A stretch of DNA of 32,000 nt from Micrococcus luteus NCTC 2665 (GCF_000023205.1 NC_012803.1:2100001-2132000); one strand, 5' to 3'. Numbered from the stretch's first letter, positions 2,206 through 26,270 are shown. Notes: generated by a model not told the origin, from the letters alone. Numbers and translations are program-made.

Positions 2206-2254
2206 GCGGGCAGTCTATGCGCGGGCCGGACGGGGTAGGGTCGGGACCAGTCCA

Positions 2255-2350
2255 CATCGACAGGGGAGCGCCCGCGCGGCGCTGAGAGTGCGGTCCGCCG
2301 CAGACCCTCGAACCTGCTCCGGTCCGCACCGGCGAAGGAAGTCGAGTCTC
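2255..2350 (+). promoter_or_regulatory. TPP (THI-box) riboswitch
   Basis: acaGGGGAGCgcccgcgcggcGCTGAGAgtgcggtccgccgcagACCCtcGAACCTGctCCGGtccgcACCGGCGaAGGAAgtcga matches the conserved THI-box core (GGGGNGC ... CUGAGA ... ACCC..GAACCUG..CNGG....CCNGCG.AGGGAA). A P1-like pairing TCGAC (about 2257) with GTCGA (about 2341) closes it. It sits in the 5' leader of a thiamine-type ABC transporter operon. Confidence 0.85.
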
Positions 2351-2423
2351 CCGGTCGACGTCGTCCCGGGATTCCGGTGGCGGCCTCGTCCCGGCCCCTC
2401 TGCCGTCCCAGAGGAGAACCGCC

Positions 2424-14690: not shown

Positions 14691-14751
14691 GCCCCGGCCG
14701 GCCGCTCTCGTGCCCGGCACCCGCCCCCACCTTCCGACCCCAGGAGCTGAC

Positions 14752-15552
14752 ATGACCACCGCACCCACCCCTTCTTCCTCCGACGACGCCCCCGCCGTCC
14801 TCGTCGAGACGCGGCCCGGCGTCGTGCGGCTGACGCTGAACCGGCCGGCGAAGGGCAACGCGCTCGGACTGACGATGGCGCGCGAGGTGCTCGCGGCGAT
14901 CGCCGCGGCCGAGGCGGACGAGTCCGTGCACGTGCTCACGCTGACCGGCGCGGGGCGGATCTTCTGCGGCGGCGGGGACGTCCAGGCCATGGCCGCCGCG
15001 CCCGCCGGGCCGGAGCGGCGCGCGATGATCCAGGAGCTCGGCGAGGCGGCGGGCGAGGTCGCGGTGGCGCTGACGGGCTCTCGCCTGCTGGTGCTGGCCG
15101 GCGTCAACGGGACGGCCGCCGGGGCGGGGCTCGGGCTCATGCTGGGCGGCGACGTCGTGCTGGTGCGCGAGGATGCGCAGCTGGTGACGGCGTTCTCCGC
15201 GCTCGGGATGACCCCGGACACGGGCGTGTCCTATTGGCTGCCGCGGGCGCTCGGGCCGGTGCGCGCGACGCAGCTGCTGCTCGGCGGGCGGCGCCTGAAC
15301 GGGGCCGAGGCCGTCGCGTGGGGCCTGGCGACCGAGGCGGTGGCCGGGGACGCGTTCGCGGCGCGTCTGGCGGCGCTCGAGGACGAGCTGGTGGCCGGTC
15401 CGGCACACACCTACGGGCCGACCAAGGCGCTGGCGCGCGGGGCCGACGTCGAGGCGCTGCGCGCGCATGTGCGGCAGGAGGCGGCGTCGATCGCGGCGGC
15501 GTCCGAGCACCCGGAGGCTGTGCGGCGGGTGGAGGCGTTCGCGGGCCGGTGA
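14752..15552 (+). CDS. Enoyl-CoA hydratase/isomerase family protein
   Basis: Start MTTAPTP after CAGGAG. Crotonase blocks VVRLTLNRPAKGNAL and LTGAGRIFCGGGDV. Confidence 0.85.
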   Translation: MTTAPTPSSSDDAPAVLVETRPGVVRLTLNRPAKGNALGLTMAREVLAAIAAAEADESVHVLTLTGAGRIFCGGGDVQAMAAAPAGPERRAMIQELGEAAGEVAVALTGSRLLVLAGVNGTAAGAGLGLMLGGDVVLVREDAQLVTAFSALGMTPDTGVSYWLPRALGPVRATQLLLGGRRLNGAEAVAWGLATEAVAGDAFAARLAALEDELVAGPAHTYGPTKALARGADVEALRAHVRQEAASIAAASEHPEAVRRVEAFAGR

Positions 15553-15642
15553 GGGGCGGGCCGCGGCCCAGGCCGCCAGTGGCCAGGCCGGCGGCGCGCC
15601 TCCACCGGGCCGACCCCGGTCAGGCGCGCGAGGGCGTGGAGG

Positions 15643-15852
15643 TCACTTGAACATCTTCAGGACGTCGCCCAGGCCGACCGTGGTGCGCCGGTAGACGGCG
15701 TTGTAGGCGGCGCGCTTCGGATCTCGCAGCCAGCCCATCCCCTTGCGGCCGTAGCCGGGGATGACCTTGCGCTTGATCGCACGCTTGGCGCGGCCCGTGG
15801 TGCGGGCCTTGATGGACTTCTTCAGGCTGGGCTTGCGGAGACCAATCTTCAT
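15643..15852 (-). CDS. Small highly basic hypothetical protein (69 aa)
   Basis: MKIGLRKPSLKKSIKARTTGRAKRAIKRKVIPGYGRKGMGWLRDPKRAAYNAVYRRTTVGLGDVLKMFK. GC3 is very high in this frame and low in the overlapping frame of ORF 15620..16681. Confidence 0.7.
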   Translation of the reverse strand: MKIGLRKPSLKKSIKARTTGRAKRAIKRKVIPGYGRKGMGWLRDPKRAAYNAVYRRTTVGLGDVLKMFK

Positions 15853-15899
15853 GGGGCGAGCGTACTGGGTGGGGTGGACGGGGTGAGGGGGTCAGCGGA

Positions 15900-16914
15900 C
15901 ACCGGATCCGCAGCACCTGGCCGGGGTGGAGGACTGTGCTCAGCGTGGGCCCGTTCAGGCTGAGCAGCTGAGCGAGCGGCACGCCGGTGGCGCGGGAGAT
16001 CGCGGACCAGCCGCCCGGGACGGCGTAGGCCACCGCGATCCCGCTCAGCGTCTGCCCCGCCTGGACGGTCACGGTCCGGGCGCCGGTGGCGCGGTCCGCC
16101 GCGAGGCGCACCAGCTGCGCGTCGACGCTCAGGCCCTGGGCGCGGGGGTGGATCCGGTCCGCGCGGAAGTCGGTGACGTACCGCGAGGCCGCCTCCCAGT
16201 CCGTCACCGCCACCCGGCCCGGGTAGCGGGCAGCGAGGTCGCGCATGGCCTGCTCAGTGAAGGCCCTCCAGGCGACCGGCCCGGACGCGGTGACCAGCAC
16301 GAGCTCCCGATCCGGGCCGACCAGGTCCATGGCCTGGCGGGCCTGGGCGGCGGCCGTGCCGCCGGTGTTCACGCCCAGACCGAGCACGACGATGTCCCTC
16401 AGCCGGCCGGCGGCCTTGAGCTGCCCGAGGCGGGTGAGGCCCTCGGCGAAGGTGCGGTCCTCCTTAGCGTCCACGGTGATCCCCGGCATCTCCAGGTTCA
16501 TCAGCGAGGTGGATCCCAGTGCGCTCGAGTCCCCGACGACGGTCACGCGTGGCCCCTGCGCCGAGACCGGCATGGGGCCGGAGTAGGTGGTCCCGGTCCG
16601 TGCGGTGGCCGCCGTGTGGATGGAGGAGGCCGGAACCACGATCGCCTGCCCCGCGGCGGAGGGGCATCGTGGACGTGGCACCGTTGGCGGCCAGCAGGCC
16701 GGCGAGCGTCACGCCCAGGCGCGGGGCCTGGAACGCCCACGTGTCCCCTGCCTCGGCCAGATAGGTGCCGGTGCGCAGGCCGTGGAGGCGGTCACCACCG
16801 TAGACGTGGGCTCGGGGGTCGTGACGGCGGCGGCCGGCGTGGCCGTCAGGCGCCGGCGAGGAGCGAGGCCAGCGCGCGGACGGCGAGGAGACGGACAGGG
16901 CGGCGAACGGTCAT
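15900..16914 (-). pseudogene. Secreted LysM - SGNH(OatA-type) - LysM protein gene, disrupted by at least 2 frame breaks and lacking an in-frame stop after the last domain
   Basis: Signal peptide MTVRRPVRLLAVRALASLLAGA starts at 16914 and then hits TGA. LysM-1 (TYLAEAGDTWAFQAPRLGVTLAGLLAANGATSTMPL) is in a second frame. Its end (AGQAIVVPA), the SGNH-like domain (VTVVGDSS...VVLGLGVNT...VTDWE...DRIHP) and LysM-2 (TVTVQAGQTLSGIA...LNGPTLSTVLHPGQVLRIR) are in a third frame (ORF 15620..16681). Confidence 0.6.
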
Positions 16915-16965
16915 GGTCGTGTTCTCGCTGACGAGGCCGCGATCCGACGCGAGTGTAGGGCGGGC

Positions 16966-18207
16966 TCACGATCGCGCGGCCGCCACCGCCTGGGGCCATC
17001 CGCCGAACCGGGTGGCCACGGTGATGTAGCTGGGCGCTCCATTGGCGGCCTGCCAGGACGTGTAGAGCGTGCTGGAACTCGACCCGGTCTCAGTCAGGAA
17101 ACGCCGCATCCACTCGGTGAGCTGCTCGTCGCTGTACCCGGTGTTCTTCCTGGCGTTGGGCAGTCCCCCGGCGGCGGCCACCAGGTCGCCCCACTGCAGA
17201 CCCGCGCGGCGCTGCAGGGTGGTCGCGCTGGGGCACCGGTGCTCCTTGGCCCACGCCGAGTACCGTCCCGACGACAGCGTCGGCCCGAGGTCTTCGATGG
17301 CCCGCCGCACGACATCGATTGCCGACGCGGCGTCGTCGCCCTCGTCGGTCTTGGCCTTCCACTGCCGCCGCTCGAAGACCCCACCGGTCACCCCAGGGAT
17401 GAGCTCCCGGGTGGCGGCCATGCGCAGAGCCGTGTGGCGGAGGTTCTCGAAGGACACGTCCAGACGGTTGCGGATCAACGCATCCGACGGCATGCCCTCC
17501 CGCTCTTGAAGCCACGCCACGAACTCGAGATGGGTGACGGGGCCGTCCGGTGCCGAGAATGCCTCCACGGCCGCAGCCCACAGATCGTCGGTCGTGTATC
17601 TGGACTCCCGTGGCACCGGTTCCGCCTGACGGATTCCAGCGGCGGCGAGTGCTGCGTTCCACCGACCGAACCGGATGGCGACGGTCTGGTGCCCGGGGAC
17701 TCCCCGAGTCCTGGCCCACGCCGTATAGCCGGCCGCCGTCGTCTGCCCGGTCTCGGCGTGGAATTGCCGCAGGAGGTCGAGCAGTTCCTCCTCCGTGGCT
17801 CGCATCGCCGTGGTCCGGCGCCGCGGGTTGGCGCGGTGCAGGTCCGCGCGCTTGCCGAGCAGCTCAGCAACCTGTTCCTCAGCGACACCGAATTTACGGG
17901 CGGCCACCTCCAGACCCACCCCGCGGTTCGACTCAGACCACGCTCGCAGGCCGGCCCGGAGCAAGCTGCGCTCCTCCTGCGCGACAATCCTCCGGTACTC
18001 CTTCAGCTCCGGGACCGTAACCTCGGACTTCCCGTTGATGATCTGCCGGACCGCCTCGCGGGTGACACCCCATTTCTTCCCGATTGCGTCCAGCGTGGCG
18101 CCGCGGGCATAGTCCACGACCATGCTGGTGGTCCGGTCCACCGGAGCGACGTCGCTCCGTCTCACCAGCCCCTCGATCAGACGGCGGCGTGCGGTCGGGA
18201 GGGTCAC
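16966..18207 (-). CDS. HTH protein with four homing-endonuclease-associated (HNH_repeat-type) repeats, no nuclease domain
   Basis: 413 aa. GTG start overlaps the stop of the upstream DUF262/DUF1524 gene (GTGA). Two HTH-like segments (ATLDAIGKKWGVTREAVRQIINGK and GLEVAARKFGVAEEQVAELLGKR). Four ~60-aa repeats end in Y..WA....P...T....FG.W..A...AG (for example YTAWARTRGVPGHQTVAIRFGRWNAALAAAG and YTSWQAANGAPSYITVATRFGGWPQAVAAA). Confidence 0.7.
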   Translation of the reverse strand: MTLPTARRRLIEGLVRRSDVAPVDRTTSMVVDYARGATLDAIGKKWGVTREAVRQIINGKSEVTVPELKEYRRIVAQEERSLLRAGLRAWSESNRGVGLEVAARKFGVAEEQVAELLGKRADLHRANPRRRTTAMRATEEELLDLLRQFHAETGQTTAAGYTAWARTRGVPGHQTVAIRFGRWNAALAAAGIRQAEPVPRESRYTTDDLWAAAVEAFSAPDGPVTHLEFVAWLQEREGMPSDALIRNRLDVSFENLRHTALRMAATRELIPGVTGGVFERRQWKAKTDEGDDAASAIDVVRRAIEDLGPTLSSGRYSAWAKEHRCPSATTLQRRAGLQWGDLVAAAGGLPNARKNTGYSDEQLTEWMRRFLTETGSSSSTLYTSWQAANGAPSYITVATRFGGWPQAVAAARS

Positions 18208-19976
18208 AGCGCGAACCTCTCGAGGGCGCGTTCCACGAGACGGGCCGTCCGCGCCTCGATGTCAGCCGAGGTCCACGTCTCCTTCTCGGCGAGCTCGGCG
18301 TTCAGCGCGAGTCCGTTCCGGTATCCGATGGCCCGCCCTTGCTGGTCGGTACGGTCTCGCTTCCGCTGGAAGGACTGGTTGCCGAGGGTGGAGTTGAAGC
18401 CGGTGATGGTGAGGTTGCCGAGCGTGTGCACGAACCGGCTCTGGGCCTCCGCCGCCGCCTCCGGTCCGCCCAGCGCGTCCACCCATTCCTGCGGGAGGTT
18501 CTCCCCCTGGGGGAGGATGTGCTCAATCGTCCAGACGAACGTCTTGCCGGACTGCGCCCACAGGTCCACCCGGGTCTCCTTGGTCATCGCGTCTTCGGCC
18601 AGCGCGGCCAGCAGGAAGCGGGTCACATCACGGTTCTCCTCGTACACGGGGCCCTCGAGCCGCTCACGGAAGGTCGCATCGCTGGCCGAGGCGGCCACGA
18701 GTGACCCGCGCACGATGGAGGGCAGCTGATCGGGCTCGCTGCCGGCCACCTCGTCGATCACGTCCATGAACAGGCGCGGCAGCGCGTAGGTCGCCGGGAA
18801 GCCGGTCAGGTTGCGTCGCACGAAGAAGCTGACCAGCAGGCGGGCGACGGCGGCCAGATCCTCTTCACTCCAGCCCGCCTTCTCCTGGCGCACCATCAGC
18901 CACATCATCAGCACGTAGGAGGGAGCAGCCTGGGCACGGCGCAGGGCGGCCAGCTCCCGGTCGAGGCTGGTCGGCGCCTCCACGTCCCCGACGCCCGCGA
19001 TGCGCCCGTACACCTGGGCGGCACGCTCCAAGGAGCGCACAGTCCCCTCGAGGTCCTGGTCCAGGAGGGACTCGTAGATGCGGATGAGGTTCTTCTTGGT
19101 GGCGACGGGCGCCAGCTTGACCGGGGGCAGGTCACCGCGGAAGGCGTTGTAGAAGTGGCGGAGGAACCGTTCATGAGTGGCATAGGAGTCCCCGAGATGG
19201 GCGAGGGTTTCGTTCCACAGCTCGAAGGCCTCCTCGACCTCCATCCCTGCCTTCTGCTCCGCCCCCGCCAGGAAGCTGTTCTTGATCAGGTCCACCGGGG
19301 TCAAGGGGACACCGCGGTTGTTGAGCGACTCGAAGAGCACGAACGCGTCGGCCGCGCTGGAAACCTCGATGTTCACGATCAGCGCGCGCCGGGCGGCGGC
19401 CAGGACGGAAAGCGCCGTCGCGCTCACCGGCTCCCCGCGTTCCTCGGCGAGCTCGGTGATGGCTGCGCGGAAGAACCAGAACGCCTTGGCCACTTTCCGG
19501 GAGGGGTAATACGCCTTCTTCTCGGACTTCACCGGCAGGCCGGCATCCTCGAGCATCGCGTGGTAGTCGGCGCGGTTGGCGCCCTGGACCTGAGGGGTCA
19601 GTCGGGGCGCCTTCTCCTCGTCCCGGACGAGCTCACGGCGCAGCGTCATCACCTCGAAGTGAGCGTCCTCGTCCAAGTCCTCGGCGTCCTTCAGGTGCGA
19701 GTGGACGGCCGCCAGCAGGATGGTCAGGGTGGTCAGGCGCTGCTGGCCGTCGATGACCTCCAGAACGGGGCCACTGAGGGAATCCTTGGTCCGGCTGAGG
19801 GTGATGATGGTCCCCAGGAAGTGCTCGTGGTCCGACTCCACCAGGTCGGCGAAGAGCGACTCCCACTGCGCACGGTGCCAGGAGTATTCGCGCTGGTAAG
19901 GCGGGACGACGTAGTGGGCCTTCATGTGGCTGCTGAACAGCTCATGCACGTGGCGAGCCTTGGCGGAGTTGATCAT
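18204..19976 (-). CDS. GmrSD-like DUF262/DUF1524 protein (putative type IV, modification-dependent, restriction endonuclease)
   Basis: Start at MINSAKARHV (aa 204 of track ORF 18204..20585) with AAGGGA upstream. DUF262 motifs YQREYSW and EVIDGQQRLTTLTILL. C-terminal DUF1524 His-Me finger region WTIEHILPQ ... HTLGNLTITGFNSTLGNQSFQRKRD. Confidence 0.8.
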   Translation of the reverse strand: MINSAKARHVHELFSSHMKAHYVVPPYQREYSWHRAQWESLFADLVESDHEHFLGTIITLSRTKDSLSGPVLEVIDGQQRLTTLTILLAAVHSHLKDAEDLDEDAHFEVMTLRRELVRDEEKAPRLTPQVQGANRADYHAMLEDAGLPVKSEKKAYYPSRKVAKAFWFFRAAITELAEERGEPVSATALSVLAAARRALIVNIEVSSAADAFVLFESLNNRGVPLTPVDLIKNSFLAGAEQKAGMEVEEAFELWNETLAHLGDSYATHERFLRHFYNAFRGDLPPVKLAPVATKKNLIRIYESLLDQDLEGTVRSLERAAQVYGRIAGVGDVEAPTSLDRELAALRRAQAAPSYVLMMWLMVRQEKAGWSEEDLAAVARLLVSFFVRRNLTGFPATYALPRLFMDVIDEVAGSEPDQLPSIVRGSLVAASASDATFRERLEGPVYEENRDVTRFLLAALAEDAMTKETRVDLWAQSGKTFVWTIEHILPQGENLPQEWVDALGGPEAAAEAQSRFVHTLGNLTITGFNSTLGNQSFQRKRDRTDQQGRAIGYRNGLALNAELAEKETWTSADIEARTARLVERALERFAL

Positions 19977-20120
19977 GCTGTGGATCCCTTGTGACGGTGG
20001 CCACGTCAAGCGGGTGCGGTGTCCTCCCTTCCTGGTCAGTCGCCCCTTAGGATCGAGAGGCTGACCACGCCCGGCCGATGCCTCAAGCGGGCGCCGCCCC
20101 CTCACCGGAGAGGAGACCCC

Positions 20121-21057
20121 ATGCCGTTGCCGGATTCCCGCTGGCATGCGGTCTCGCCGTCCCCGTTCGAGCATGAGCAGCAGGGCCTGGACATCCTCCG
20201 CCAGATCCTCCCGGACGAGTCCCCCTTCCACGTGTGGACCAACTTCGAGTTCCCGGACGAGGACGGCCAGTGGCATGAGGTGGACGCGCTCGTCCTGGCA
20301 CGCACTCAGCTGATCCTGCTGGAGCTGAAGTACTACTCCGGCACGCTCACGGGCACGGGCCTGCGCTGGGAACGCCCGGGCCACGCCCCGCAGCGATCCC
20401 CCCTGGCCGGCGCCAAGAAGAAGGCGGAACGGTTCCGGAGCCTCCTGGAGCGCACCCTCAAGGCCGCCGAGCCGGGGGCGGCGCGCCAGCGCATCATCCC
20501 GTACGTGGACTACGCGGTGTTCCTCCACCACCCTCGGTTCCGCAACGCGATGGCGCCGACGGACTCCGGCCGGCGTCGTCCTCACCGGTCGCGCGCAGGA
20601 CGCGCTGGCCGACCACCGCGAAGCCGAGGGGTATACGGCGGCCGCAGATCACACGGTCCTCGCATCGACCGCCGACGACCTCCGCTGGTGGACGTGGGGA
20701 GGCGCGGGGGCCAACGCGCTCCTGGTCGCCGCGCTCGAGCAGGTTGCACCGGAGCTGCTGGGCGAAAAGCTCCGATTCGACAACTTCTCCCTCAGGTTGC
20801 GCGGCGACGTCGATGCGGCATCGCTCGGAAGAGCCCTGCGCCAGGCGACGTCGAATTTCGGAGGTGACCTGGCCGGCGTCGACCCGCTAGTCGATGACGC
20901 CGCGGTACGGGGTCTGAAGTTCCACGAGATGCTGCCCTTGGACCTCGCCCGCGCGACACTGGCGGCGCGGCTGGCCGACCATACTGGCGTCGCTCGGGTG
21001 CTGGAACGCCCCGTCCAGATGTTGCGCACCGCAGAGGACGGAAGGATGTGGGGATGA
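20121..21057 (+). pseudogene. NERD-domain protein with a +1 frame switch near 20570 (frameshifted gene or assembly indel)
   Basis: SD GGAGAGGAG. The N-terminal 150 aa are NERD-like (FEHEQQGLDILRQIL...VWTNFEF...GQWHEVDALVLARTQLILLELKYYSG). After ...APTDSG the frame turns Arg-rich with low GC3. The +1 frame carries high-GC3 protein-like sequence (GVVLTGRAQDAL...LRWWTWGGAGANALLVAALEQV...) to the TGA at 21055-21057, with no start codon of its own before 20797. Confidence 0.6.
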
Positions 21058-21058
21058 G

Positions 21059-21379
21059 ATGAACAAACACGACGAGACCCTGGCCCAGCTGCGCGAGTTC
21101 GTCGCCGAACGTGACTGGGCCCGGTTCCACACCCCGGCCAGCCTCGCCAAGTCCATCAGCATCGAGGCCGCAGAGCTGCTCGAGCACTTCCAGTGGACGG
21201 AGGACGGCGCGGACATGGCTGAGGTGCAGGACGAGCTGGCGGACGTGCTGACCTACGCGTTCATGTTCGCGGACCAGATGGGCTGGGACGTGGATGAGAT
21301 CATCCAGGCCAAGCTGGTGAAGACGCGGGTCAAGCACCCGGTGCCGACAGGCGGGGACGAGGAGGCGACGTCGTCATGA
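21059..21379 (+). CDS. MazG-like nucleotide pyrophosphohydrolase (small all-alpha NTP-PPase)
   Basis: 106 aa. LREFVAERDWARFHTPASLAKSISIEAAELLEHFQW ... DELADVLTYAFMFADQMGWDVDEII.AKL matches the MazG-like / dCTP-pyrophosphatase-like pattern (EF..eR.W..fH.P..La..i..Ea.EL.E.FqW ... E.aDvl.Y). The ATG lies 1 nt after the upstream stop. Confidence 0.8.
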   Translation: MNKHDETLAQLREFVAERDWARFHTPASLAKSISIEAAELLEHFQWTEDGADMAEVQDELADVLTYAFMFADQMGWDVDEIIQAKLVKTRVKHPVPTGGDEEATSS

Positions 21380-23328
21380 CCGACCACAACCCCGGGTACA
21401 CACTGGAACGCCTGCCGTTCAAGGGCGCCCTTCCCCCCGAGCAGGAGAAGAACGCGCGCATGCGGGACTGGCCCGCCGTGTACGTGATCGACAATGAGAA
21501 GCAGGTCTACGTCGGCGAGACGACGAATGTCGTCGCCCGACGAGGACAGCACCACATGGACCCGCGCAAGGCTCGCCTGACGACGATGCGCGTGGTGCTT
21601 CATGACGAGTTCAACAAGTCCGCCGCCCTGGACCTGGAGCGCTACCTCATCCAGATGCTCAGCGGCGACGGCGCCCGCGAGGTCCTGAACCGCAACGCCG
21701 GCATGACGGAGTCGGACTACTACGACCGCACGCGCTACCAGGAGATGTTCGCTGCCATCTTCGAGCGGCTGCGGGCAGAGAAGGTGTTCAGCCGCTCCCG
21801 CGAGCAGATCCTCAACAGCACCCTGTTCAAGCTCTCGCCCTTCAAGGTGCTCACGCCGGAGCAGGAGGCATCGCTGCGGCACATCATCCAGCTGCTCGTC
21901 GCCGATGACGACGTCGATCGCGGCCCGCTCGTCATTCAGGGCGGCCCCGGCACCGGCAAGACGGTGGTGGGCGTGTTCCTGGCGAAACTGCTCGTGGACC
22001 TCGCGAACCTCACGGAGGAGGACGTCGAGGTGGACCTCAGCTCCGACCACGACTTCTTCGACCTGTTCACCCACGCCAACCGGAACGCCCTGCTGCGCAG
22101 CACCGAGGGCCGTGGTCTGCGCATCGGGATCGTCGTACCGCAGCAGTCCCTCCGCCAGTCCCTCAAGCGTGTCTTCCGCCGGACGCCGGGGCTGCACCCG
22201 TCCATGGTGCTGTCCGTGTGGAACGTCGGAGACGCCGAGGAGCGCTACGACATCCTGATCGTTGACGAGGCCCACCGCCTCGGTCTGCGCTCGGCGCAGT
22301 CCAACGGCAGTTTGAACAACAAGTACACGGCCATCAACCAGCGCCTCTTCGGCGACGACGACGTCTCCCACACCCAGCTCGACTGGATCACCCAGCAGGC
22401 CAGGGACGTCGTCCTGCTCGTGGACCCGCGCCAGACGGTGCGTCCGGCCGACCTCGACGCCGCGACGATGGACGCCCTCCTCGCGCGGGCGCACGCCGAA
22501 CACCGTCACCACGCGCTGGTGTCACAGCTCCGCGTCAAGGCGTCCGACTCGTACGTCGACTTCTTCGGCAAGCTCCTCCGGGGCGAGCACCCTCCGGCCC
22601 CGGACCTGGGCGAGTACGACCTGCGCTTGTTCACGGACTTCGGCGCGATGCGCGAGGCGATCCGTGCGCGCGACACCGAGTTCACCCTCGCCCGTCTTGC
22701 CGCCGGGTTTGCTTGGAAGTGGCAGAGCAAGGGCTTCCGCAAGGATCCGTCGAAGCCGGACTGGGACATCGAGCTCGACGGGGTACGGATGCCGTGGAAC
22801 GTCGCCGACACCGACTGGGTCGACTCCCCCGGCTCACTCGACGAGATCGGCTCCATCCACACCCTCCAGGGGTATGACCTCAACTACGCCGGCGTCGTCA
22901 TCGGTCCGGACCTGCAGTGGGACGACACGGCCCAGCGGGTGGTCTTCTCCCGTGCCGACTATGCGGACACGGGCGGCAAGAAGAACAACGGCTACCTCAG
23001 CCGCACCTACTCGGACGAGGACCTGCGCGAGTACGTCATCAACATCTACAACGTGCTCCTGACCCGCGGCGTCCGCGGGACCTACCTGTACGTGGTGGAC
23101 CCCGACCTGCACGAGCAGTTCGCCCGCTGGTTCCCGGGCATCGACGAACCCGACGTGACGTCAGCGCCCTTCGGCGTCCCTCCGGGTGGCCGCCCGGGCG
23201 AGGTCCTGCGCGCCGTCGATGTCGGCTACACGGCGGAGGCCGAGTTCATCGCCTCGACGGACGACCTCGAGCAGGCCCGTCGTCGTGCTGAGGAACTCCG
23301 CCGTTCCCGGAAGCGGACCCGGGAGTGA
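21376..23328 (+). CDS. GIY-YIG-like nuclease domain fused to a DUF2075 (Schlafen-type SF1) helicase/ATPase (COG3410 architecture)
   Basis: 650 aa. ATGA overlap with the MazG-like stop. N-terminus VYVIDNEKQVYVGETTNVVARRGQH...LERYL...NRNAG resembles GIY-YIG. Walker A QGGPGTGKT and Walker B ILIVDEAHRL. C-terminal IHTLQGYDLNYAGVVIG and NVLLTRGVRGTYLYVVD are typical of DUF2075. Confidence 0.8.
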   Translation: MTDHNPGYTLERLPFKGALPPEQEKNARMRDWPAVYVIDNEKQVYVGETTNVVARRGQHHMDPRKARLTTMRVVLHDEFNKSAALDLERYLIQMLSGDGAREVLNRNAGMTESDYYDRTRYQEMFAAIFERLRAEKVFSRSREQILNSTLFKLSPFKVLTPEQEASLRHIIQLLVADDDVDRGPLVIQGGPGTGKTVVGVFLAKLLVDLANLTEEDVEVDLSSDHDFFDLFTHANRNALLRSTEGRGLRIGIVVPQQSLRQSLKRVFRRTPGLHPSMVLSVWNVGDAEERYDILIVDEAHRLGLRSAQSNGSLNNKYTAINQRLFGDDDVSHTQLDWITQQARDVVLLVDPRQTVRPADLDAATMDALLARAHAEHRHHALVSQLRVKASDSYVDFFGKLLRGEHPPAPDLGEYDLRLFTDFGAMREAIRARDTEFTLARLAAGFAWKWQSKGFRKDPSKPDWDIELDGVRMPWNVADTDWVDSPGSLDEIGSIHTLQGYDLNYAGVVIGPDLQWDDTAQRVVFSRADYADTGGKKNNGYLSRTYSDEDLREYVINIYNVLLTRGVRGTYLYVVDPDLHEQFARWFPGIDEPDVTSAPFGVPPGGRPGEVLRAVDVGYTAEAEFIASTDDLEQARRRAEELRRSRKRTRE

Positions 23329-23350
23329 CAGCCCCTACCCTCGGGAATCT

Positions 23351-23409
23351 TCTGCGCACCTGACCCTTCTGACCCGGCCACGGCCGCCGAGAAGGGTCAG
23401 ATGCGCAGA
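23351..23409. terminator. Long hairpin (20-bp stem, 19-nt loop) right after the DUF2075 gene
   Basis: TCTGCGCACCTGACCCTTCT (23351-23370) pairs with AGAAGGGTCAGATGCGCAGA (23390-23409) with one mismatch. It starts 23 nt after the stop at 23328. Confidence 0.45.
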
Positions 23410-23525
23410 CGATCCCTGACACACGGCACCACCGCCCCCCCACGCGGCAAATACACAACACTTGCCTTGCGTATCTCACTGAGGTGTGCCTTACTGGTTC
23501 TCGGACCCCCGCCGGAAGGACCCCC

Positions 23526-24353
23526 ATGGCCCACGCCTCCACGCACCCCGCCCATCCGCTGCCGCCCGTGGCGCCCCGTCGTCTGCTGCTGGCCCAGCGG
23601 CTGCTCCGCGGCGAGGGCTCCGTCGAGGTCACGGCCTTCCGCGCCGGCGAGACGCTCACCACGGCCGTCCACGGCGTGAGCGCGGACGGCCGCCTCGTGG
23701 TCGCCCACGTCCCCAACCTCCTCGGTTCGCTCGGCGCGTTCCACACGCCCGCGCCGCTGGACGTGCGCGTGGACGTCCTGCGCGACGCCCTGGACCTCAC
23801 GGTCCCCACCCGCCTGGCGTCCGTGCATCTGCTCGGCACCCTGCGCTGGTGCCGGGACTCGGCCGAGGTCGCGGAGCTGGGGCTGCGCGGTCGCGTCGCG
23901 GACCTCGTGGCCGACGTCGGCCCGCGGGTGCGCGTGGGCGTCGTCGAGACCCAGCGGATCCTGTTGCACGACGTCGACGGCGTCGCCGTGTTCTGCCGCC
24001 ACACCCTGCCGCTCACGTCGCGCGGACTGGTCGACCAGGCCGAGCTCGCAGACCTGGCGGACGACGTGCTGGGCACCGCCCCCGAGGTGCTCGCGGACCT
24101 GGCCGACGCCGTCGCCCTGGGCCTGCTGCCGGGCGAGAGCACCCCGTTGCAGGTCGGCACCGCACCCCTGTCCGAGTCCCCCGCCCACGCCCTCGACGCG
24201 GACGAAGCCGGGGTGACCCTGCTGCGCGTCCGCGATGGCGAGAGCACCGCGGTGCACGTGGCCCTGCCCGGCGCGGGTCGGCTCGACCACAGCCCGCGGC
24301 ACGCCTGGCGGCGACTGCTGGACGCGATCCCGGCGCGGGTCGCCCGCCCCTGA
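23526..24353 (+). CDS. Hypothetical protein
   Basis: Start MAHASTHP after GGAAGGA (aa 15 of track ORF 23484..24353). High GC3 and ordinary amino-acid composition. There is a vague resemblance to DUF2470/PPOX-like actinobacterial proteins that I cannot substantiate. Confidence 0.5.
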   Translation: MAHASTHPAHPLPPVAPRRLLLAQRLLRGEGSVEVTAFRAGETLTTAVHGVSADGRLVVAHVPNLLGSLGAFHTPAPLDVRVDVLRDALDLTVPTRLASVHLLGTLRWCRDSAEVAELGLRGRVADLVADVGPRVRVGVVETQRILLHDVDGVAVFCRHTLPLTSRGLVDQAELADLADDVLGTAPEVLADLADAVALGLLPGESTPLQVGTAPLSESPAHALDADEAGVTLLRVRDGESTAVHVALPGAGRLDHSPRHAWRRLLDAIPARVARP

Positions 24354-24362
24354 GGGGCGGCG

Positions 24363-24637
24363 TCAGTCGATCGTGTAGGTGGCGCAGGTGGCCACGTCCG
24401 TGACCTCGATGCCCTCGGCGGTGCAGGCGAGGTCGGCGTTGTACGTGCACTCGAGGCGGTGGCACGCACCGACGGTCGAGGTGCCCTCGGTCACCGGGCG
24501 GCGGACGTCCAGCTGGACGAAGGTGCCGCAGCCGGGCGTGCGGTCGGAGCCGGCGACGGTGATGGCCAGGGCGTTGCAGGACGACTGGGCGTTGAAGGCG
24601 CAGGCGCGGCGGCGCAGGTGCGGACGGCGGTGGTCAT
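24363..24637 (-). pseudogene. Small Cys-rich protein (~91 aa, 10 Cys) whose SD-ATG is out of frame with the body
   Basis: GGGAGGAtcacgccATG (ATG at 24637) opens MTTAVRTCAAA. The high-GC3 body (ACAFNAQSSCNALAITVAGSDRTPGCGTFVQLDV...ACHRLECTYNADLACTAEGIEVTDVATCATYTID*) is in another frame. The junction lies in a GCC/GCG run near 24600-24610. The span is 275 nt, not a multiple of 3. Confidence 0.5.
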
Positions 24638-24782
24638 GGCGTGATCCTCCCGGTTCGGGCCCGCCCCGGGATGGGGCGGCGCTGCTGGAATCGAGATTAC
24701 TCCGGCCCGCGAATAGCACAAGAGGGGTGAGCCTTAGTCGATAGACGATTAGCGCAAATGGATTTTGCGCATTGTCGCGTGT

Positions 24783-24790
24783 CCTATGGG
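24783..24790. repeat. Target-site duplication, left copy (CCTATGGG)
   Basis: Identical 8-mer at 26277-26284, immediately outside the other IR. ISL3 elements typically generate 8-bp duplications. Confidence 0.85.
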
Positions 24791-24812
24791 GGCTCTTCCC
24801 AGTTGAGCGTGG
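24791..24812. repeat. IS left inverted repeat (IRL)
   Basis: GGCTCTTCCCAGTTGAGCGTGG; the reverse complement of 26255-26276 is GGCTCTTCACACTTGAGCGTGG. Confidence 0.9.
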
Positions 24813-24896: not shown

Positions 24897-26270
24897 ATGT
24901 CCCAGCGTACGCGCGCTGCCTTGCCCCTGCCTGCCCACGCCGCTGCCGAGCACCACGTCCGTGCGGCGGCATCGGTGGTGTTCAACCTGGAGGGATACAC
25001 CGTCCTTCAGGCCCTCGACCGGCCACTGGGAGGTAGGCGTGTCGTTGTGGCCGCCGATGCCGCCGAGGGGGCCTGCCCGGGCTGCGGGGTGTTCTCGGGC
25101 CGGGTGCACCAGCGGGTCCGCCAGTCCGTGAAGGACATCCCTGTCGGTGGGGACCTGTTGGAGTTGGTTGTCGTCAAGCCCAGGTTCCTGTGCGCCGAGG
25201 GGGCCTGCCCGCGCCGGACCTTCACGCAGACCACGGACCAGTTGCCGGCCCGGGCCCGGTGTACCACCCGGTTGCGGGAGGCCGTGGTGGCCGCGGTGCT
25301 GGACTCCGGCCGGGCCACCGCGGAAGCCGCCAACGCGCATGGCCTGGCGTGGGGCACCGTCAACGCCGCCATCCTGGGCCACACCATGGTCTTGCCGGAG
25401 GTCGACAAGGTGCCGGTGCGGGCGCTGGGCATCGACGAGCACCGGTTCGCCACCGCCAAGTGGTTCAAACACCCCGACACGGCCGTCTGGTGCCGGGTCG
25501 AGCCGTGGATGAGCACCTTTGTCGTCGCCGACACCGGGCACGTGCTCGGCGTCGTCGACGGACGGTCTTCCCGCAACGTCACCGCCTGGCTGGCCGAACG
25601 CTCCGAAGCCTGGCTGGATCGGCTCGAGGTGGTCGCCATCGATCCCTCGGCCACGTTCCGCACCGCGATCCGCAAGGTGCTGCCGACCGTGGACATCAGC
25701 GTGGACCACTTCCACCTGGTCAAGCTCGGCAACCAGATGCTCACCGAGGTCCGCCAACGCGTGGTGCGCGAAGTCCTGGGCCGGCGGGGCCGCAAGCAGG
25801 ATGCCGTGTGGGCTCACCGGATGTTGCTGCTGCGGGCCGGGGACCGACTCACCGAGGCCGGCCTGCGCCGACTCGAGCACGTCCTGGACGACGATGCCTA
25901 TGAGCAGGTCGCCGCCGCCTGGGCGGTCAAGGAGCACCTGCGGCGGATCCTGAACGCCCCCACCGTCGCAGCGGCCCAGAACGCCCGGATCGACTTCGAG
26001 CTGACCGTAGCCGCCGCAGGACTGCCGGAGGCTGACAGGCTCTCGGCCACCGTGGGGAAGTGGTGGGTCGAGATCAAGGTGTTCATCCGCACCCGAGTCA
26101 CGAACGCCCGCACCGAGGCGGCCAACACGGCCATCAAACAGGTCAAGCGCACCGGCCGCGGGTTCCGCAACCAGACCAACTACCAGTCACGTATTCTGGC
26201 CAGGAGCTTCCGACGGACACGCCGACGCTCCCAGATCCACCCTCGAGCAGGACTCCACGCTCAAGTGTGA
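24897..26270 (+). CDS. ISL3 family transposase
   Basis: 457 aa. N-terminal zinc finger CPGCG...H; LGIDEHRF; VVAIDPSATFRTAI; VDHFHLVKLGNQMLTEVRQRV; C-terminal NARTEAANTAIKQVKRTGRGFRNQTNYQSRIL. Confidence 0.9.
   Translation: MSQRTRAALPLPAHAAAEHHVRAAASVVFNLEGYTVLQALDRPLGGRRVVVAADAAEGACPGCGVFSGRVHQRVRQSVKDIPVGGDLLELVVVKPRFLCAEGACPRRTFTQTTDQLPARARCTTRLREAVVAAVLDSGRATAEAANAHGLAWGTVNAAILGHTMVLPEVDKVPVRALGIDEHRFATAKWFKHPDTAVWCRVEPWMSTFVVADTGHVLGVVDGRSSRNVTAWLAERSEAWLDRLEVVAIDPSATFRTAIRKVLPTVDISVDHFHLVKLGNQMLTEVRQRVVREVLGRRGRKQDAVWAHRMLLLRAGDRLTEAGLRRLEHVLDDDAYEQVAAAWAVKEHLRRILNAPTVAAAQNARIDFELTVAAAGLPEADRLSATVGKWWVEIKVFIRTRVTNARTEAANTAIKQVKRTGRGFRNQTNYQSRILARSFRRTRRRSQIHPRAGLHAQV

What the first reader, a model, noticed from the sequence alone, without database searches (positions are those of the whole stretch)
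16966..23409. Lower-GC accessory island made only of nuclease, NTPase and DNA-binding genes: a likely anti-phage defence island
What the sequence shows:
- Five consecutive genes lie in two divergent operons sharing a 144-bp control region (19977-20120).
- Every gene junction is translationally coupled: GTGA at 18204-18207, a 1-nt gap at 21057/21059, and ATGA at 21376-21379.
- The segment is visibly less GC-rich than its surroundings. One 60-nt line I counted at 21061 has 39 G+C, whereas flanking metabolic genes look well above 70%.
- It is bracketed by a decayed LysM gene on the left, and by a 20-bp-stem hairpin and then an IS on the right.

Established knowledge: DUF262/DUF1524 (GmrSD/BrxU-type), NERD, GIY-YIG, MazG-type NTP pyrophosphatases and DUF2075/Schlafen-type helicases are all folds recurrently found in bacterial immune loci, and defence genes cluster in islands.

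Inference: this is a horizontally acquired defence island holding one recognisable type IV restriction-like module with an odd partner, plus one module I cannot assign to any named system.
Basis: partly seen in the sequence, partly recalled or inferred. Interest (0 to 1): 0.8.

Follow-up and report, generated by a model that had tools for sequence, protein, structure and literature searches.

The report
Defence hotspot with deleted BREX scar
This stretch of a Micrococcus-type chromosome is an anti-phage defence hotspot. It holds one recognisable restriction-type enzyme with a rare partner, the leftover stump of a roughly 17-kb BREX defence system that was deleted, and a widely conserved but unnamed two-gene nuclease-helicase module that is a good candidate for a new defence system.

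Summary
The coordinates, the three gene junctions, the 144-bp divergent spacer, the lower GC (68.1% against 74.5%) and the hairpin are all real. The defence reading is largely right. Three points are wrong.

1. The "NERD gene" is not a gene. Bases 20121-20572 are codons 1-150 of pglW. Bases 20573-21057 are about the last 161 codons of brxHI, joined out of frame. A relative with 85% DNA identity carries the same GmrSD gene facing an intact pglW-pglX-pglY-pglZ, and its homology to the window stops at base 20572. About 17 kb of a type 2 BREX system was deleted.

2. The block is not one acquired island. MazG plus GIY-YIG/DUF2075 is an older resident, about as diverged as the flanking core genes in a sister species. 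The slot just upstream holds a type III R-M in two related lineages.

3. The LysM ORF is open, and no att repeats, integrase or credible tRNA flank the block.

The intact parts are a HEC-06-type GmrSD enzyme coupled to a rare HTH/HNH-repeat protein, and the MazG-like plus GIY-YIG/SF1B-helicase pair. That pair is linked in 81 of 84 loci and recurs on Bacillus plasmids. It is Nhi-like in architecture, and I found it neither named nor tested.

The parts
16966..18207 (-). Gene A, 413 aa. It has an N-terminal sigma-70-region-4-like HTH and, by my reading of the sequence, about four homing-endonuclease-associated repeats (Pfam matched two stretches). It is translationally coupled to the GmrSD gene (GTGA overlap).
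   Evidence: - Pfam HNH_repeat PF18780, E 1.8e-17, plus weak HTH/Sigma70_r4 hits. No PADLOC hit.
- Only 4 protein clusters in 5.8 billion proteins.
- A 39%-identical relative lies directly upstream of a GmrSD gene of the same subfamily.
- The model is all-helical and has no PDB fold match.
18204..19976 (-). Gene B, 590 aa. GmrSD-family (DUF262 + DUF1524) type IV restriction-like enzyme of the HEC-06 type.
   Evidence: - Pfam GmrSD_N 1.3e-35 and GmrSD_C 9.4e-19.
- PADLOC Orf5 2.4e-74 and HEC-06 1.3e-70, both over almost the full length.
- The DGQQR and EHILP motifs are visible in the translation. Their equivalents are essential in HEC-06.
- The N-terminal 281 aa are 92% identical to the GmrSD gene that faces an intact BREX-2 in L119.
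19977..20120 (.). 144-bp divergent spacer between the GmrSD gene and pglW'. It has a conserved TAGGAT (20048-20053, -10-like) and the RBS GGAGAGGAG (20107-20115).
   Evidence: Sequence. The alignment to L119 is 85% identical with conserved blocks. No sigma-70 consensus promoter was found, so the promoter assignment is inference.
20121..20572 (+). pglW': the first 150 codons (NERD nuclease domain) of the type 2 BREX kinase PglW. The ORF then continues out of frame to a stop at 20865-20867, which gives the 248-aa "NERD protein" call.
   Evidence: - PADLOC PglW, positions 3-144 of 1403, E 1.5e-45. NCBIfam BREX_PglW, positions 2-142 of 1391, E 4.6e-45.
- 86% identical to residues 1-148 of a 1435-aa PglW, P0128. 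Most strong hits are proteins of about 1350-1470 aa matched at their N-terminus.
- Homology to L119 ends at 20572.
20573..21057 (+). 'brxHI: about the last 161 codons of the type 2 BREX helicase BrxHI, in frame +1 relative to pglW'. The deletion junction lies between 20572 and 20573.
   Evidence: - PADLOC BrxHI, positions 555-694 of 698, E 1.9e-23.
- 43% identical to residues 556-695 of the 702-aa helicase that follows brxD in an annotated BREX-2 locus, E 1e-21.
- Frame analysis.
21059..21379 (+). Gene D, 106 aa. MazG-like / DCTPP1-like all-alpha NTP pyrophosphohydrolase.
   Evidence: - Pfam MazG-like 6.6e-18.
- PDB 4qgp 9.5e-16 and dCTP pyrophosphatase 1 1.5e-10.
- E36, E39, E59 and D62 are at least 95% conserved in 70 distinct partner sequences.
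- It lies directly upstream of the DUF2075 gene in 81 of 84 loci.
21376..23328 (+). Gene E, 650 aa. N-terminal GIY-YIG nuclease plus a DUF2075/Schlafen-type SF1B helicase. ATGA overlap with gene D.
   Evidence: - Pfam SLFN-g3_helicase 1.9e-66 and GIY-YIG 6.8e-4.
- Invariant across 21 homologues: GIY-YIG residues Y36, Y45, G47, R55, H59, E88, N105; Walker A G189-T196; Walker B D297/E298.
- Foldseek matches RecD, Upf1, Dna2, SLFN11 and Dda.
- More than 3200 homologues.
23341..23419 (+). Long imperfect hairpin directly after gene E. Probably a U-tail-less terminator, and possibly a recombination point.
   Evidence: - 30-nt arms, 87% complementary. dG -56.5, z -9.4. Unique in the window.
- In L033 the stretch 23276-23413, which includes the hairpin arms, appears on both sides of a 4.6-kb insertion.

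Best explanation
The segment is a chromosomal defence hotspot assembled in layers. It is not one five-gene island. It has three layers.

(1) Type IV-like module. Genes B and A form a two-gene unit. B is a GmrSD-family enzyme of the HEC-06 type. It has a ParB/DUF262 NTPase domain with the DGQQR motif and a DUF1524 HNH nuclease domain with the EHILP motif. By analogy with characterised relatives, it should cut modified phage DNA. A is a rare all-helical DNA-binding protein with an HTH and HNH repeats. I infer that it acts as a DNA-binding accessory or regulator of B.

(2) Deleted BREX. A complete type 2 BREX (Pgl) system once stood divergently next to B. A single deletion of about 17 kb, running from pglW codon 151 to about brxHI codon 555, removed it. 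What remains is an out-of-frame pglW'/'brxHI chimera that cannot provide BREX function.

(3) Unnamed two-gene cassette. Genes D and E are self-contained and translationally coupled. I infer that E is the effector: an ATP-driven SF1B helicase carrying a GIY-YIG nuclease that attacks phage DNA or replication intermediates, as the Nhi nuclease-helicase does. I infer that D hydrolyses dNTPs, possibly modified dCTP or dUTP analogues, either starving phage replication or preventing protective base modification.

Shown: the gene structures, the domain identities, the scar, the D-E linkage and the variable context. Inferred: all biochemical activities and the defence phenotype.
For: Scar:
- PglW and BrxHI profile matches map to the extreme N-terminal and C-terminal profile positions.
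- The frames switch at about 20572.
- Pairwise alignments to an annotated BREX-2 locus support both assignments.
- P0128 is a 1435-aa PglW, 86% identical over residues 1-148.
- Its contig L119 shows GmrSD, a 143-bp spacer, then pglW-pglX-pglY-pglZ. DNA homology to the window (85.4%) ends exactly at 20572.

Genes B and A:
- B matches HEC-06 and Orf5 over its full length. HEC-06 is experimentally validated, and its DGQQR and HNH motifs are essential.
- The A/GmrSD pairing recurs at 39% and 29% identity.

Genes D and E:
- MazG lies directly upstream in 81 of 84 loci.
- The pairing holds on Bacillus plasmids at 27% (E) and 40% (D) identity.
- It persists with changed order or orientation in IMG/VR contigs.
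- Catalytic residues are conserved in both proteins.
- E has an SF1B fold.

Context of D-E:
- Neighbours vary: 100 of 149 neighbour ORFs are singletons.
- Defence genes recur nearby: CRISPR-Cas, type III R-M, GmrSD, HipBA, PLD-helicase-DUF3427, SIR2, Mokosh, Vsr/C5-MTase and PD-Lambda-1.

Layering:
- L019 orthologue identities are NaAla 82%, WcbI 82%, MazG 80% and E 72%.
- L033 (E 97% identical) and L022 have a type III R-M in the slot where the scar lies. Homology between L033 and the window begins at the MazG start.
Against: - No experiment exists for any of these genes.
- D and E have no significant full-length PADLOC match. There are only weak partial hits to PDC-S41, PDC-S14, AbiO and Nhi.
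- D-E neighbours also include housekeeping genes such as rpoA, dnaE, TetR regulators and dehydrogenases.
- D-E appears vertically stable within Micrococcus. That is equally compatible with a repair or housekeeping role.
- The right-hand breakpoint of the deletion was not seen in an intact relative, because only the first 15.3 kb of the 21.3-kb L119 contig could be read. The size of about 17 kb and the single-event claim are therefore estimates.
- The role of gene A is pure inference. One relative of A lies next to a DUF6361 gene rather than a GmrSD gene, on a short contig.
Confidence: 0.8

Rival explanations
1. First reader's model. Five intact genes form two operons: a GmrSD module, and a three-gene NERD-MazG-GIY-YIG/DUF2075 module. 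The whole block was acquired together as one island.
For: - A Pfam NERD hit exists.
- The 1-nt gap to the MazG start looks like coupling.
- Stand-alone NERD proteins are among the commonest neighbours of D-E elsewhere, in 5-6 of 25 loci.
Against: - The ORF that starts at 20121 does not reach 21057. The frames differ.
- The N-terminal part scores 154 bits against BREX_PglW and 53 bits against NERD. It is 86% identical to the N-terminus of a 1435-aa PglW.
- The 3' part is the BrxHI C-terminus.
- tblastn with the pglW' fragment found nothing next to D-E in the other D-E loci held when one search was run.
- NERD neighbours elsewhere sit at varying positions and on varying strands.
Confidence: 0.03
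2. D-E is not an immune system. It is an accessory DNA-repair or nucleotide-pool-sanitising pair, in which a GIY-YIG/helicase processes lesions and MazG removes non-canonical dNTPs. It merely sits in a variable region.
For: - DCTPP1/MazG enzymes are classic house-cleaning enzymes (established knowledge).
- GIY-YIG occurs in UvrC (established knowledge).
- D-E is retained at a syntenic position in two Micrococcus species, at core-like divergence.
- Some neighbours are housekeeping genes. NUDIX hydrolases recur nearby.
Against: - Context is highly variable.
- The pair lies immediately next to CRISPR-Cas, type III R-M, BREX-2, GmrSD, PLD-DUF3427, SIR2 and Mokosh genes.
- It occurs on Bacillus megaplasmids beside HNH endonucleases and a zeta toxin.
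- The nuclease + DUF2075 architecture is that of the validated defence proteins Nhi and Nhi-like.
Confidence: 0.22
3. D-E is not autonomous. It is an auxiliary effector of methylation-based systems (BREX-2, type III R-M) encoded directly upstream, and it works only with them.
For: - D starts 1 nt after the brxHI stop in the window.
- D follows the type III Res gene by 24-40 nt in L022 and L033.
Against: - Most D-E loci have no such system upstream: L019, L025, L018, the 25 metagenomic loci and the Bacillus plasmids.
- D-E stays intact and identical across strains after the BREX deletion.
Confidence: 0.1
4. The pglW'/'brxHI chimera is a domesticated, functional gene, for example a stand-alone NERD nuclease driven by the old pglW promoter, rather than inert debris.
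For: - The NERD domain, including a D...ELK motif visible in the translation, is complete. Its start codon and RBS are intact.
- The -10-like box is conserved with L119.
- The ORF is identical in all strains seen.
Against: - The strains are about 100% identical over the whole 10 kb, so conservation says nothing about selection.
- 98 of the 248 residues are out-of-frame read-through of brxHI sequence.
Confidence: 0.15

Closest known systems
HEC-06 (GmrSD-like single-protein defence; Payne et al., bioRxiv 10.1101/2024.01.29.577857). More broadly, GmrSD, BrxU and SspE type IV enzymes.
   Same: - B has DUF262 + DUF1524 architecture.
- It matches the HEC-06 profile over its full length (E 1.3e-70).
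- The DGQQR and E-H-x-x-P motifs are present.
- It neighbours a BREX system, as BrxU does (PMC8565348; PMC12839542).
   Different: - B is translationally coupled to a 413-aa HTH/HNH-repeat protein. I did not find this partner in what I read on HEC-06, BrxU or GmrSD.
- The host is an actinobacterium.
- The associated BREX was type 2, not type 1.
- Substrate and activity are untested.
Type 2 BREX / Pgl system (pglW, pglX, pglY, pglZ, brxD, brxHI)
   Same: - The two remnants are the 5' end of the first gene and the 3' end of the last gene, in the right order and orientation.
- An 85%-identical relative has the intact pglW-pglX-pglY-pglZ at the same place.
   Different: Four whole genes and most of two others are missing. 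The two ends are fused out of frame. It is a scar, not a system.
Nhi (Staphylococcus nuclease-helicase immunity, Bari et al.) and Nhi-like (Millman et al. 2022)
   Same: Both have an N-terminal nuclease fused to a DUF2075 SF1B helicase. The structural neighbours are the same: Dda, Upf1 and Dna2.
   Different: - The nuclease is GIY-YIG, not PD-(D/E)xK.
- Similarity to the PADLOC Nhi and AbiO profiles is limited to the P-loop region (E about 1e-5).
- It is almost always paired with a MazG-like pyrophosphatase, whereas Nhi is a single gene.
DCTPP1 / RS21-C6 and MazG-like all-alpha NTP pyrophosphatases
   Same: D shares the fold family and the EXXE...EXXD metal-binding motifs.
   Different: D is a 106-aa stand-alone protein genetically locked to a nuclease-helicase. 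MazG domains have been predicted in defence but not validated (PMC13092281).

Membership tests
GmrSD-family type IV restriction enzyme (HEC-06 type) | N-terminal DUF262/ParB-like domain with the DGQQR motif | tested here: met
   Pfam GmrSD_N E 1.3e-35. IDGQQRLTT is present in the translation.
GmrSD-family type IV restriction enzyme (HEC-06 type) | C-terminal DUF1524 HNH nuclease domain with the (D/E)H motif | tested here: met
   Pfam GmrSD_C E 9.4e-19. TIEHILPQ and the downstream LGNLTITGFNSTLGN are present.
GmrSD-family type IV restriction enzyme (HEC-06 type) | Full-length profile match to a validated member | tested here: met
   PADLOC HEC-06 PDLC04155, residues 9-585 against profile positions 11-555 of 562, E 1.3e-70.
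GmrSD-family type IV restriction enzyme (HEC-06 type) | NTP-stimulated cleavage of modified DNA, and phage resistance | not testable with these tools
   Needs biochemistry and plaque assays.
Type 2 BREX (Pgl) | Complete set of pglW, pglX, pglY/brxC, pglZ, brxD and brxHI | tested here: not met
   Only pglW codons 1-150 and about the last 161 brxHI codons remain. No pglX, pglY, pglZ or brxD lies between 19977 and 21058.
Type 2 BREX (Pgl) | Descent from an intact system at this site | tested here: met
   L119 has the same GmrSD gene (92% aa identity) facing an intact pglW-pglX-pglY-pglZ. Homology to the window ends at 20572.
Nhi / Nhi-like nuclease-helicase | DUF2075 SF1B helicase domain | tested here: met
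   Pfam PF09848 E 1.9e-66. Foldseek finds RecD, Upf1, Dna2 and Dda.
Nhi / Nhi-like nuclease-helicase | N-terminal PD-(D/E)xK nuclease | tested here: not met
   The N-terminus is GIY-YIG, with invariant Y36, Y45, R55, E88 and N105.
Nhi / Nhi-like nuclease-helicase | Sequence-profile membership | tested here: not met
   PADLOC Nhi E 5.3e-5 and AbiO E 1.4e-5, covering only residues 158-206.
Nhi / Nhi-like nuclease-helicase | Single-gene system | tested here: not met
   A MazG-like gene is directly upstream in 81 of 84 loci.
MazG-like / DCTPP1-like NTP pyrophosphohydrolase | All-alpha MazG fold with EXXE...EXXD metal-binding motifs | tested here: met
   Pfam MazG-like 6.6e-18. PDB DCTPP1 1.5e-10. 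E36, E39, E59 and D62 are at least 95% conserved.
Stand-alone NERD nuclease gene | A complete ORF whose product is a NERD protein ending at its own stop | tested here: not met
   The NERD domain is the PglW N-terminus. The rest of the 248-aa ORF is out-of-frame brxHI sequence.
Horizontally acquired genomic island | Atypical composition | tested here: met
   68.1% against 74.5% GC, with lower GC3. The difference is modest, and part of it comes from GC1 and GC2 (amino-acid composition).
Horizontally acquired genomic island | Integrase, a tRNA target, or flanking direct repeats | tested here: not met
   There are no repeats beyond chance-level 14-27-mers and no integrase. The only tRNA call is a 95-nt prediction inside a CDS.
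Horizontally acquired genomic island | Presence or absence varies among relatives | tested here: inconclusive
   All contigs with the identical ECH protein carry the block. L033 (97%), L022 and L019 have different content around D-E. No relative lacking D-E at this site was seen.

The most novel reading that the evidence does not exclude
The MazG-like pyrophosphatase plus GIY-YIG/DUF2075 SF1B nuclease-helicase pair is an undescribed two-gene anti-phage system found in at least two phyla (Actinomycetota and Bacillota). In it, a DCTPP1-like enzyme acts on the dNTP pool, for example by destroying modified dCTP or dUTP analogues or by depleting dNTPs. It works together with a translocating GIY-YIG nuclease that degrades phage DNA. 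Separately, GmrSD enzymes of the HEC-06 type may use a dedicated HTH/HNH-repeat DNA-binding partner.
Probability: 0.4. Interest if true: 0.7.

Novelty: new variant of a known kind. Interest (0 to 1): 0.55.

Why it matters
1. It gives a base-resolved example of how a large defence system is lost. A deletion of about 17 kb removed BREX-2, with the junction at 20572|20573 and a near relative that still carries the intact system. Automated annotation reports the scar as a "NERD domain protein".

2. It shows a chromosomal slot where different methylation-based systems (BREX-2, type III R-M) replace one another next to a stable neighbour. This bears on how defence hotspots turn over.

3. It isolates a tightly linked cassette, found in Actinomycetota and Bacillota, that joins a nucleotide pyrophosphatase to a Schlafen-type nuclease-helicase. 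No tool or paper I could search names it. MazG domains have been predicted in defence but never validated. DUF2075/Schlafen helicases restrict viruses in both bacteria (Nhi) and humans. The pair is therefore a concrete, cheap target for a plaque-assay test.

Tried and rejected
- The search for homologous proteins with the concatenated pglW'/'brxHI peptide returned only 3 short NERD hits. The word index was too insensitive. The exhaustive HMMER search then found the 1435-aa relative.
- The genome-contig scan with protein E alone gave one locus, Haematomicrobium.
The right-hand breakpoint therefore could not be seen in an intact relative.
- P0002 (E 85% identical) has only 294 nt upstream of MazG, and that stretch is unrelated to brxHI.
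- The promoter scan found nothing, and the terminator-like hits were at chance level.
- The direct-repeat search found no att-like flanks.
- Rfam has no match in the island.
- The predicted structure of gene A has locally fair confidence but pTM 0.31 and no PDB match with E below 0.2. The only hints are local similarity to sigma region 4.
- I considered a simple sequencing frameshift in a stand-alone NERD gene and rejected it. Five independent assemblies are identical across the region. The downstream frame is BrxHI, not NERD-family sequence.
- I considered and rejected the idea that NERD is a regular third partner of D-E. NERD neighbours elsewhere are unrelated to pglW' and vary in position.
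- I could not establish which system the PADLOC family "Orf5", the best hit of B, belongs to.
- DefenseFinder could not be run.

Full report
CONTEXT

The window is about 73% GC. Over bases 14700-24800 it is identical, apart from one 1-nt indel at 24608, to the complete genomes LS483396.1 and CP007437.1 (2.5 Mb each) and to several draft assemblies. From memory these are Micrococcus luteus. The tools show only that the closest named relatives of gene E are "Micrococcus sp." and other Micrococcales.

Gene order around the finding is:
- Na/Ala symporter
- thiolase, acyl-CoA ligase, acyl-CoA dehydrogenase, enoyl-CoA hydratase
- LysM protein
- gene A, gene B
- the pglW'/'brxHI scar
- gene D, gene E
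- a 275-aa hypothetical protein, a DUF1540 protein, an ISL3 transposase, PhoD, WcbI

CHECK OF THE OBSERVATION

The following are as described:
- ORF coordinates and the three junctions: GTGA at 18204-18207, a 1-nt gap at 21058, and ATGA at 21376-21379.
- The 144-bp spacer at 19977-20120.
- All the named Pfam domains.
- Composition. GC is 68.1% for 16966-23328 against 74.5% elsewhere, and this is the lowest 6.4-kb stretch in the window. GC3 is 0.81-0.93 against 0.95-0.98 in neighbouring core genes. The shift is modest, and part of it comes from first and second codon positions.
- The hairpin: 30-nt arms at 23341-23370 and 23390-23419, dG -56.5 kcal/mol, z = -9.4. It is unique in the window and has no U-tail.

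The following do not hold:
- The LysM ORF is open (339-353 codons). Its DNA is the same as in strains where gene callers report an intact 339-aa LysM protein.
- The IS is 1.5 kb away, beyond two genes.
- There are no att-like repeats, no integrase and no credible tRNA.
- There are not five genes.

THE "NERD GENE" IS A BREX-2 DELETION SCAR

Frame analysis:
- Codon-position GC shows coding in frame 0 from 20121 to about 20560 and in frame +1 from there to 21057.
- The ORF that starts at 20121 ends out of frame at 20867.

The frame-0 part is the PglW N-terminus:
- It matches PADLOC PglW at profile positions 3-144 of 1403 (E 1.5e-45).
- It matches the NCBIfam equivalog BREX_PglW at positions 2-142 of 1391 (E 4.6e-45, 154 bits). 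Pfam NERD gives only 53 bits.

The frame +1 part is the BrxHI C-terminus:
- It matches PADLOC BrxHI at positions 555-694 of 698 (E 1.9e-23).
- It aligns at 43% identity to residues 556-695 of the 702-aa helicase that follows brxD in an annotated Streptomyces BREX-2 locus.

An exhaustive HMMER search with residues 1-148 found 1146 relatives. Most strong hits are proteins of about 1350-1470 aa matched at their N-termini. The best is P0128, 1435 aa and 86% identical.

The contig of P0128, L119, carries the following:
- a GmrSD gene, 92% identical to B over 281 aa
- a 143-bp spacer
- PglW (NERD + kinase)
- PglX (1179 aa)
- PglY (1254 aa)
- PglZ

DNA homology between L119 and the window is 85.4% over window 19123-20572. 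It stops at 20572, after which the two sequences are unrelated. The junction therefore lies between 20572 and 20573. PglW residues 1-150 are kept, and BrxHI resumes at about codon 555.

Using gene lengths from L119 and the Streptomyces locus, about 17 kb was lost. This is an estimate, because the 3' third of the L119 contig could not be retrieved. The composition and order of type 2 BREX follow PMC12839542.

All strains seen that carry identical B, E or ECH proteins carry the same scar.

MODULE 1: GmrSD PLUS PARTNER

Gene B:
- It matches the experimentally validated GmrSD-like defence protein HEC-06 over almost its full length (E 1.3e-70). It also matches a PADLOC family called Orf5 (E 2.4e-74).
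- It contains the DGQQR and EHILP motifs. Their equivalents are essential in HEC-06.

Gene A:
- It has a sigma-region-4-like HTH and, by my reading of the sequence, about four homing-endonuclease-associated repeats. Pfam matched two stretches.
- It is rare, with four clusters in 5.8 billion proteins.
- A 39%-identical relative sits directly upstream of a GmrSD of the same subfamily, which is 29% identical to B over its full length and has an extra DNA_binding_1 domain.
- A 59% relative lies beside a DUF6361 gene on a short contig.
- The predicted structure of A is all-helical, has low global confidence, and has no PDB analogue.
- The recurrence of the pair at low identity and the GTGA overlap argue for a functional unit. 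The role of A, as a DNA-binding accessory or regulator, is inference.

MODULE 2: MazG-LIKE PLUS GIY-YIG/DUF2075

Gene E:
- It has more than 3200 homologues, mostly in Actinomycetota.
- GIY-YIG residues (Y36, Y45, G47, R55, H59, E88, N105) are invariant across 21 homologues, as are Walker A and Walker B.
- The AlphaFold model (mean pLDDT 78.8) matches SF1B helicases: RecD, RecD2, Upf1, Dna2, SLFN11, SLFN14 and Dda.

Gene D:
- It resembles DCTPP1/RS21-C6 and an archaeal-type pyrophosphatase.
- Its EXXE...EXXD residues are at least 95% conserved in 70 distinct partner sequences.

Linkage of D and E:
- A MazG-like ORF lies directly upstream of the E homologue in 81 of 84 loci with room for it. E identity in these loci goes down to 45%.
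- The pair recurs on Bacillus mycoides and B. thuringiensis megaplasmids, with E at about 27% and D at 40% identity.
- In 6 of 8 IMG/VR contigs a MazG-like gene lies within 2 kb of a 25-35% E homologue, but with changed order or orientation.
- Co-occurrence that does not depend on gene order is good evidence of a functional link.

No constant third gene:
- Of 149 neighbour ORFs from 25 loci, 100 are singletons.
- The commonest family appears in only 5-6 loci, at varying positions.

Recurrent neighbours are defence-related:
- type I-U/I-G-like CRISPR-Cas and PLD-helicase-DUF3427
- HipBA
- type III R-M, a pair of DUF262 genes, and an AlbA_2/HATPase_c_4 protein
- a SIR2_2 giant protein, Mokosh MkoA/MkoC, Vsr with C5-methyltransferases, type IV enzymes, PD-Lambda-1, PDC-S07 and PDC-S48

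Housekeeping neighbours also occur.

PADLOC has no full-length model for D or E. I found no paper that combines DUF2075 with MazG or "pyrophosphohydrolase". The closest described systems are Nhi and Nhi-like, which have a nuclease plus DUF2075 in a single gene. A 2019 survey noted GIY-YIG/DUF2075 fusions near defence genes. MazG domains have been predicted in defence but not validated.

LAYERED ORIGIN

- In a sister species (L019, 72.7% GC), D-E lies between the same Na/Ala symporter and WcbI genes. Amino-acid identities are symporter 82%, WcbI 82%, MazG 80% and E 72%. D-E is therefore about as old at this location as the flanking genes. A, B, the scar and the beta-oxidation operon are absent there.
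- In L033 (E 97% identical), homology to the window starts at the MazG start. A type III R-M (Mod + Res) occupies the slot of the scar.
- L022 (69%) has a type III R-M in the same slot, plus a divergent pair of DUF262 genes.
- In L033 the hairpin region is also present on both sides of a 4.6-kb insertion.
- The picture is a stable D-E anchor with a turnover slot upstream and a second variable point at the hairpin.

MECHANISM (INFERRED)

- B restricts modified DNA, as other GmrSD enzymes do. A helps bind DNA or regulates B.
- BREX-2 is non-functional.
- E translocates on and cuts phage DNA.
- D manipulates the dNTP pool.
- None of this has been tested.

VERDICT

The defence-island reading is largely right. 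The island holds two intact two-gene modules and one scar, rather than five genes. It is a layered hotspot rather than a single acquisition. The scar is well proven and ordinary in kind. The D-E pair is the part worth following up.

Noticed in passing
window 2252-2357 (+): A TPP riboswitch (Rfam RF00059, 59.9 bits, above the gathering score) lies upstream of the ORF that starts near 2424.
   Followed up: no
window 24608: This is the only difference from five public assemblies across 10.1 kb. The window lacks one T (GCGCGGCGG against GCGCTGGCGG). The site is in the N-terminal part of the DUF1540 gene region (24363-24719, minus strand), so the ORF start differs from the 91-aa product annotated elsewhere.
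   Followed up: partly
window 24183-24277 (-): ARAGORN calls a 95-nt tRNA-Glu(ctc) inside the 275-aa hypothetical gene (23526-24353). The length and location suggest a false positive.
   Followed up: no
window 24897-26270 (+): An ISL3-family transposase abuts or overlaps the start of phoD (26267). Several metagenomic contigs end about here, as expected for a repeated element.
   Followed up: no
L033 6554-6623 and 11213-11350, against window 23276-23416: In a 97% relative, a 4.6-kb insertion (a zinc alcohol dehydrogenase and a GAF/PucR regulator) sits just after gene E. The hairpin-containing stretch is present on both sides of it. The hairpin may therefore be a recombination or insertion hotspot.
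   Followed up: partly
window 15982-16094; L003 4706-4719: The LysM ORF contains 14-nt exact direct repeats 99 nt apart. Assembly CABC01000106 differs from the window in exactly this region. This is repeat-mediated length variation in a low-complexity part of the protein.
   Followed up: no
L029 1953-4526: The GmrSD gene next to the distant gene-A relative carries an extra C-terminal DNA_binding_1 (methylated-DNA methyltransferase-type) domain. This fusion might hint at what the HEC-06-type enzymes sense.
   Followed up: no
L056, L063, L074, L093, L104 (NUDIX); L048, L064, L066, L074, L077 (NERD): Small NUDIX hydrolases and stand-alone NERD proteins recur within about 4 kb of the MazG/DUF2075 pair in 5 of 25 loci each, at varying positions. 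PLD-helicase-DUF3427 recurs in L018, L056 and L074.
   Followed up: partly
L124, L125, L126 (IMG/VR contigs): In viral-labelled contigs the MazG-like gene lies downstream of, or convergent with, the DUF2075 gene instead of upstream. I did not check whether these contigs are true phages or mis-called prophage or host DNA.
   Followed up: no
L032 457-1689: The 59% relative of gene A is next to a DUF6361 protein rather than a GmrSD gene. The contig is only 3.8 kb, so the wider context is unknown.
   Followed up: no
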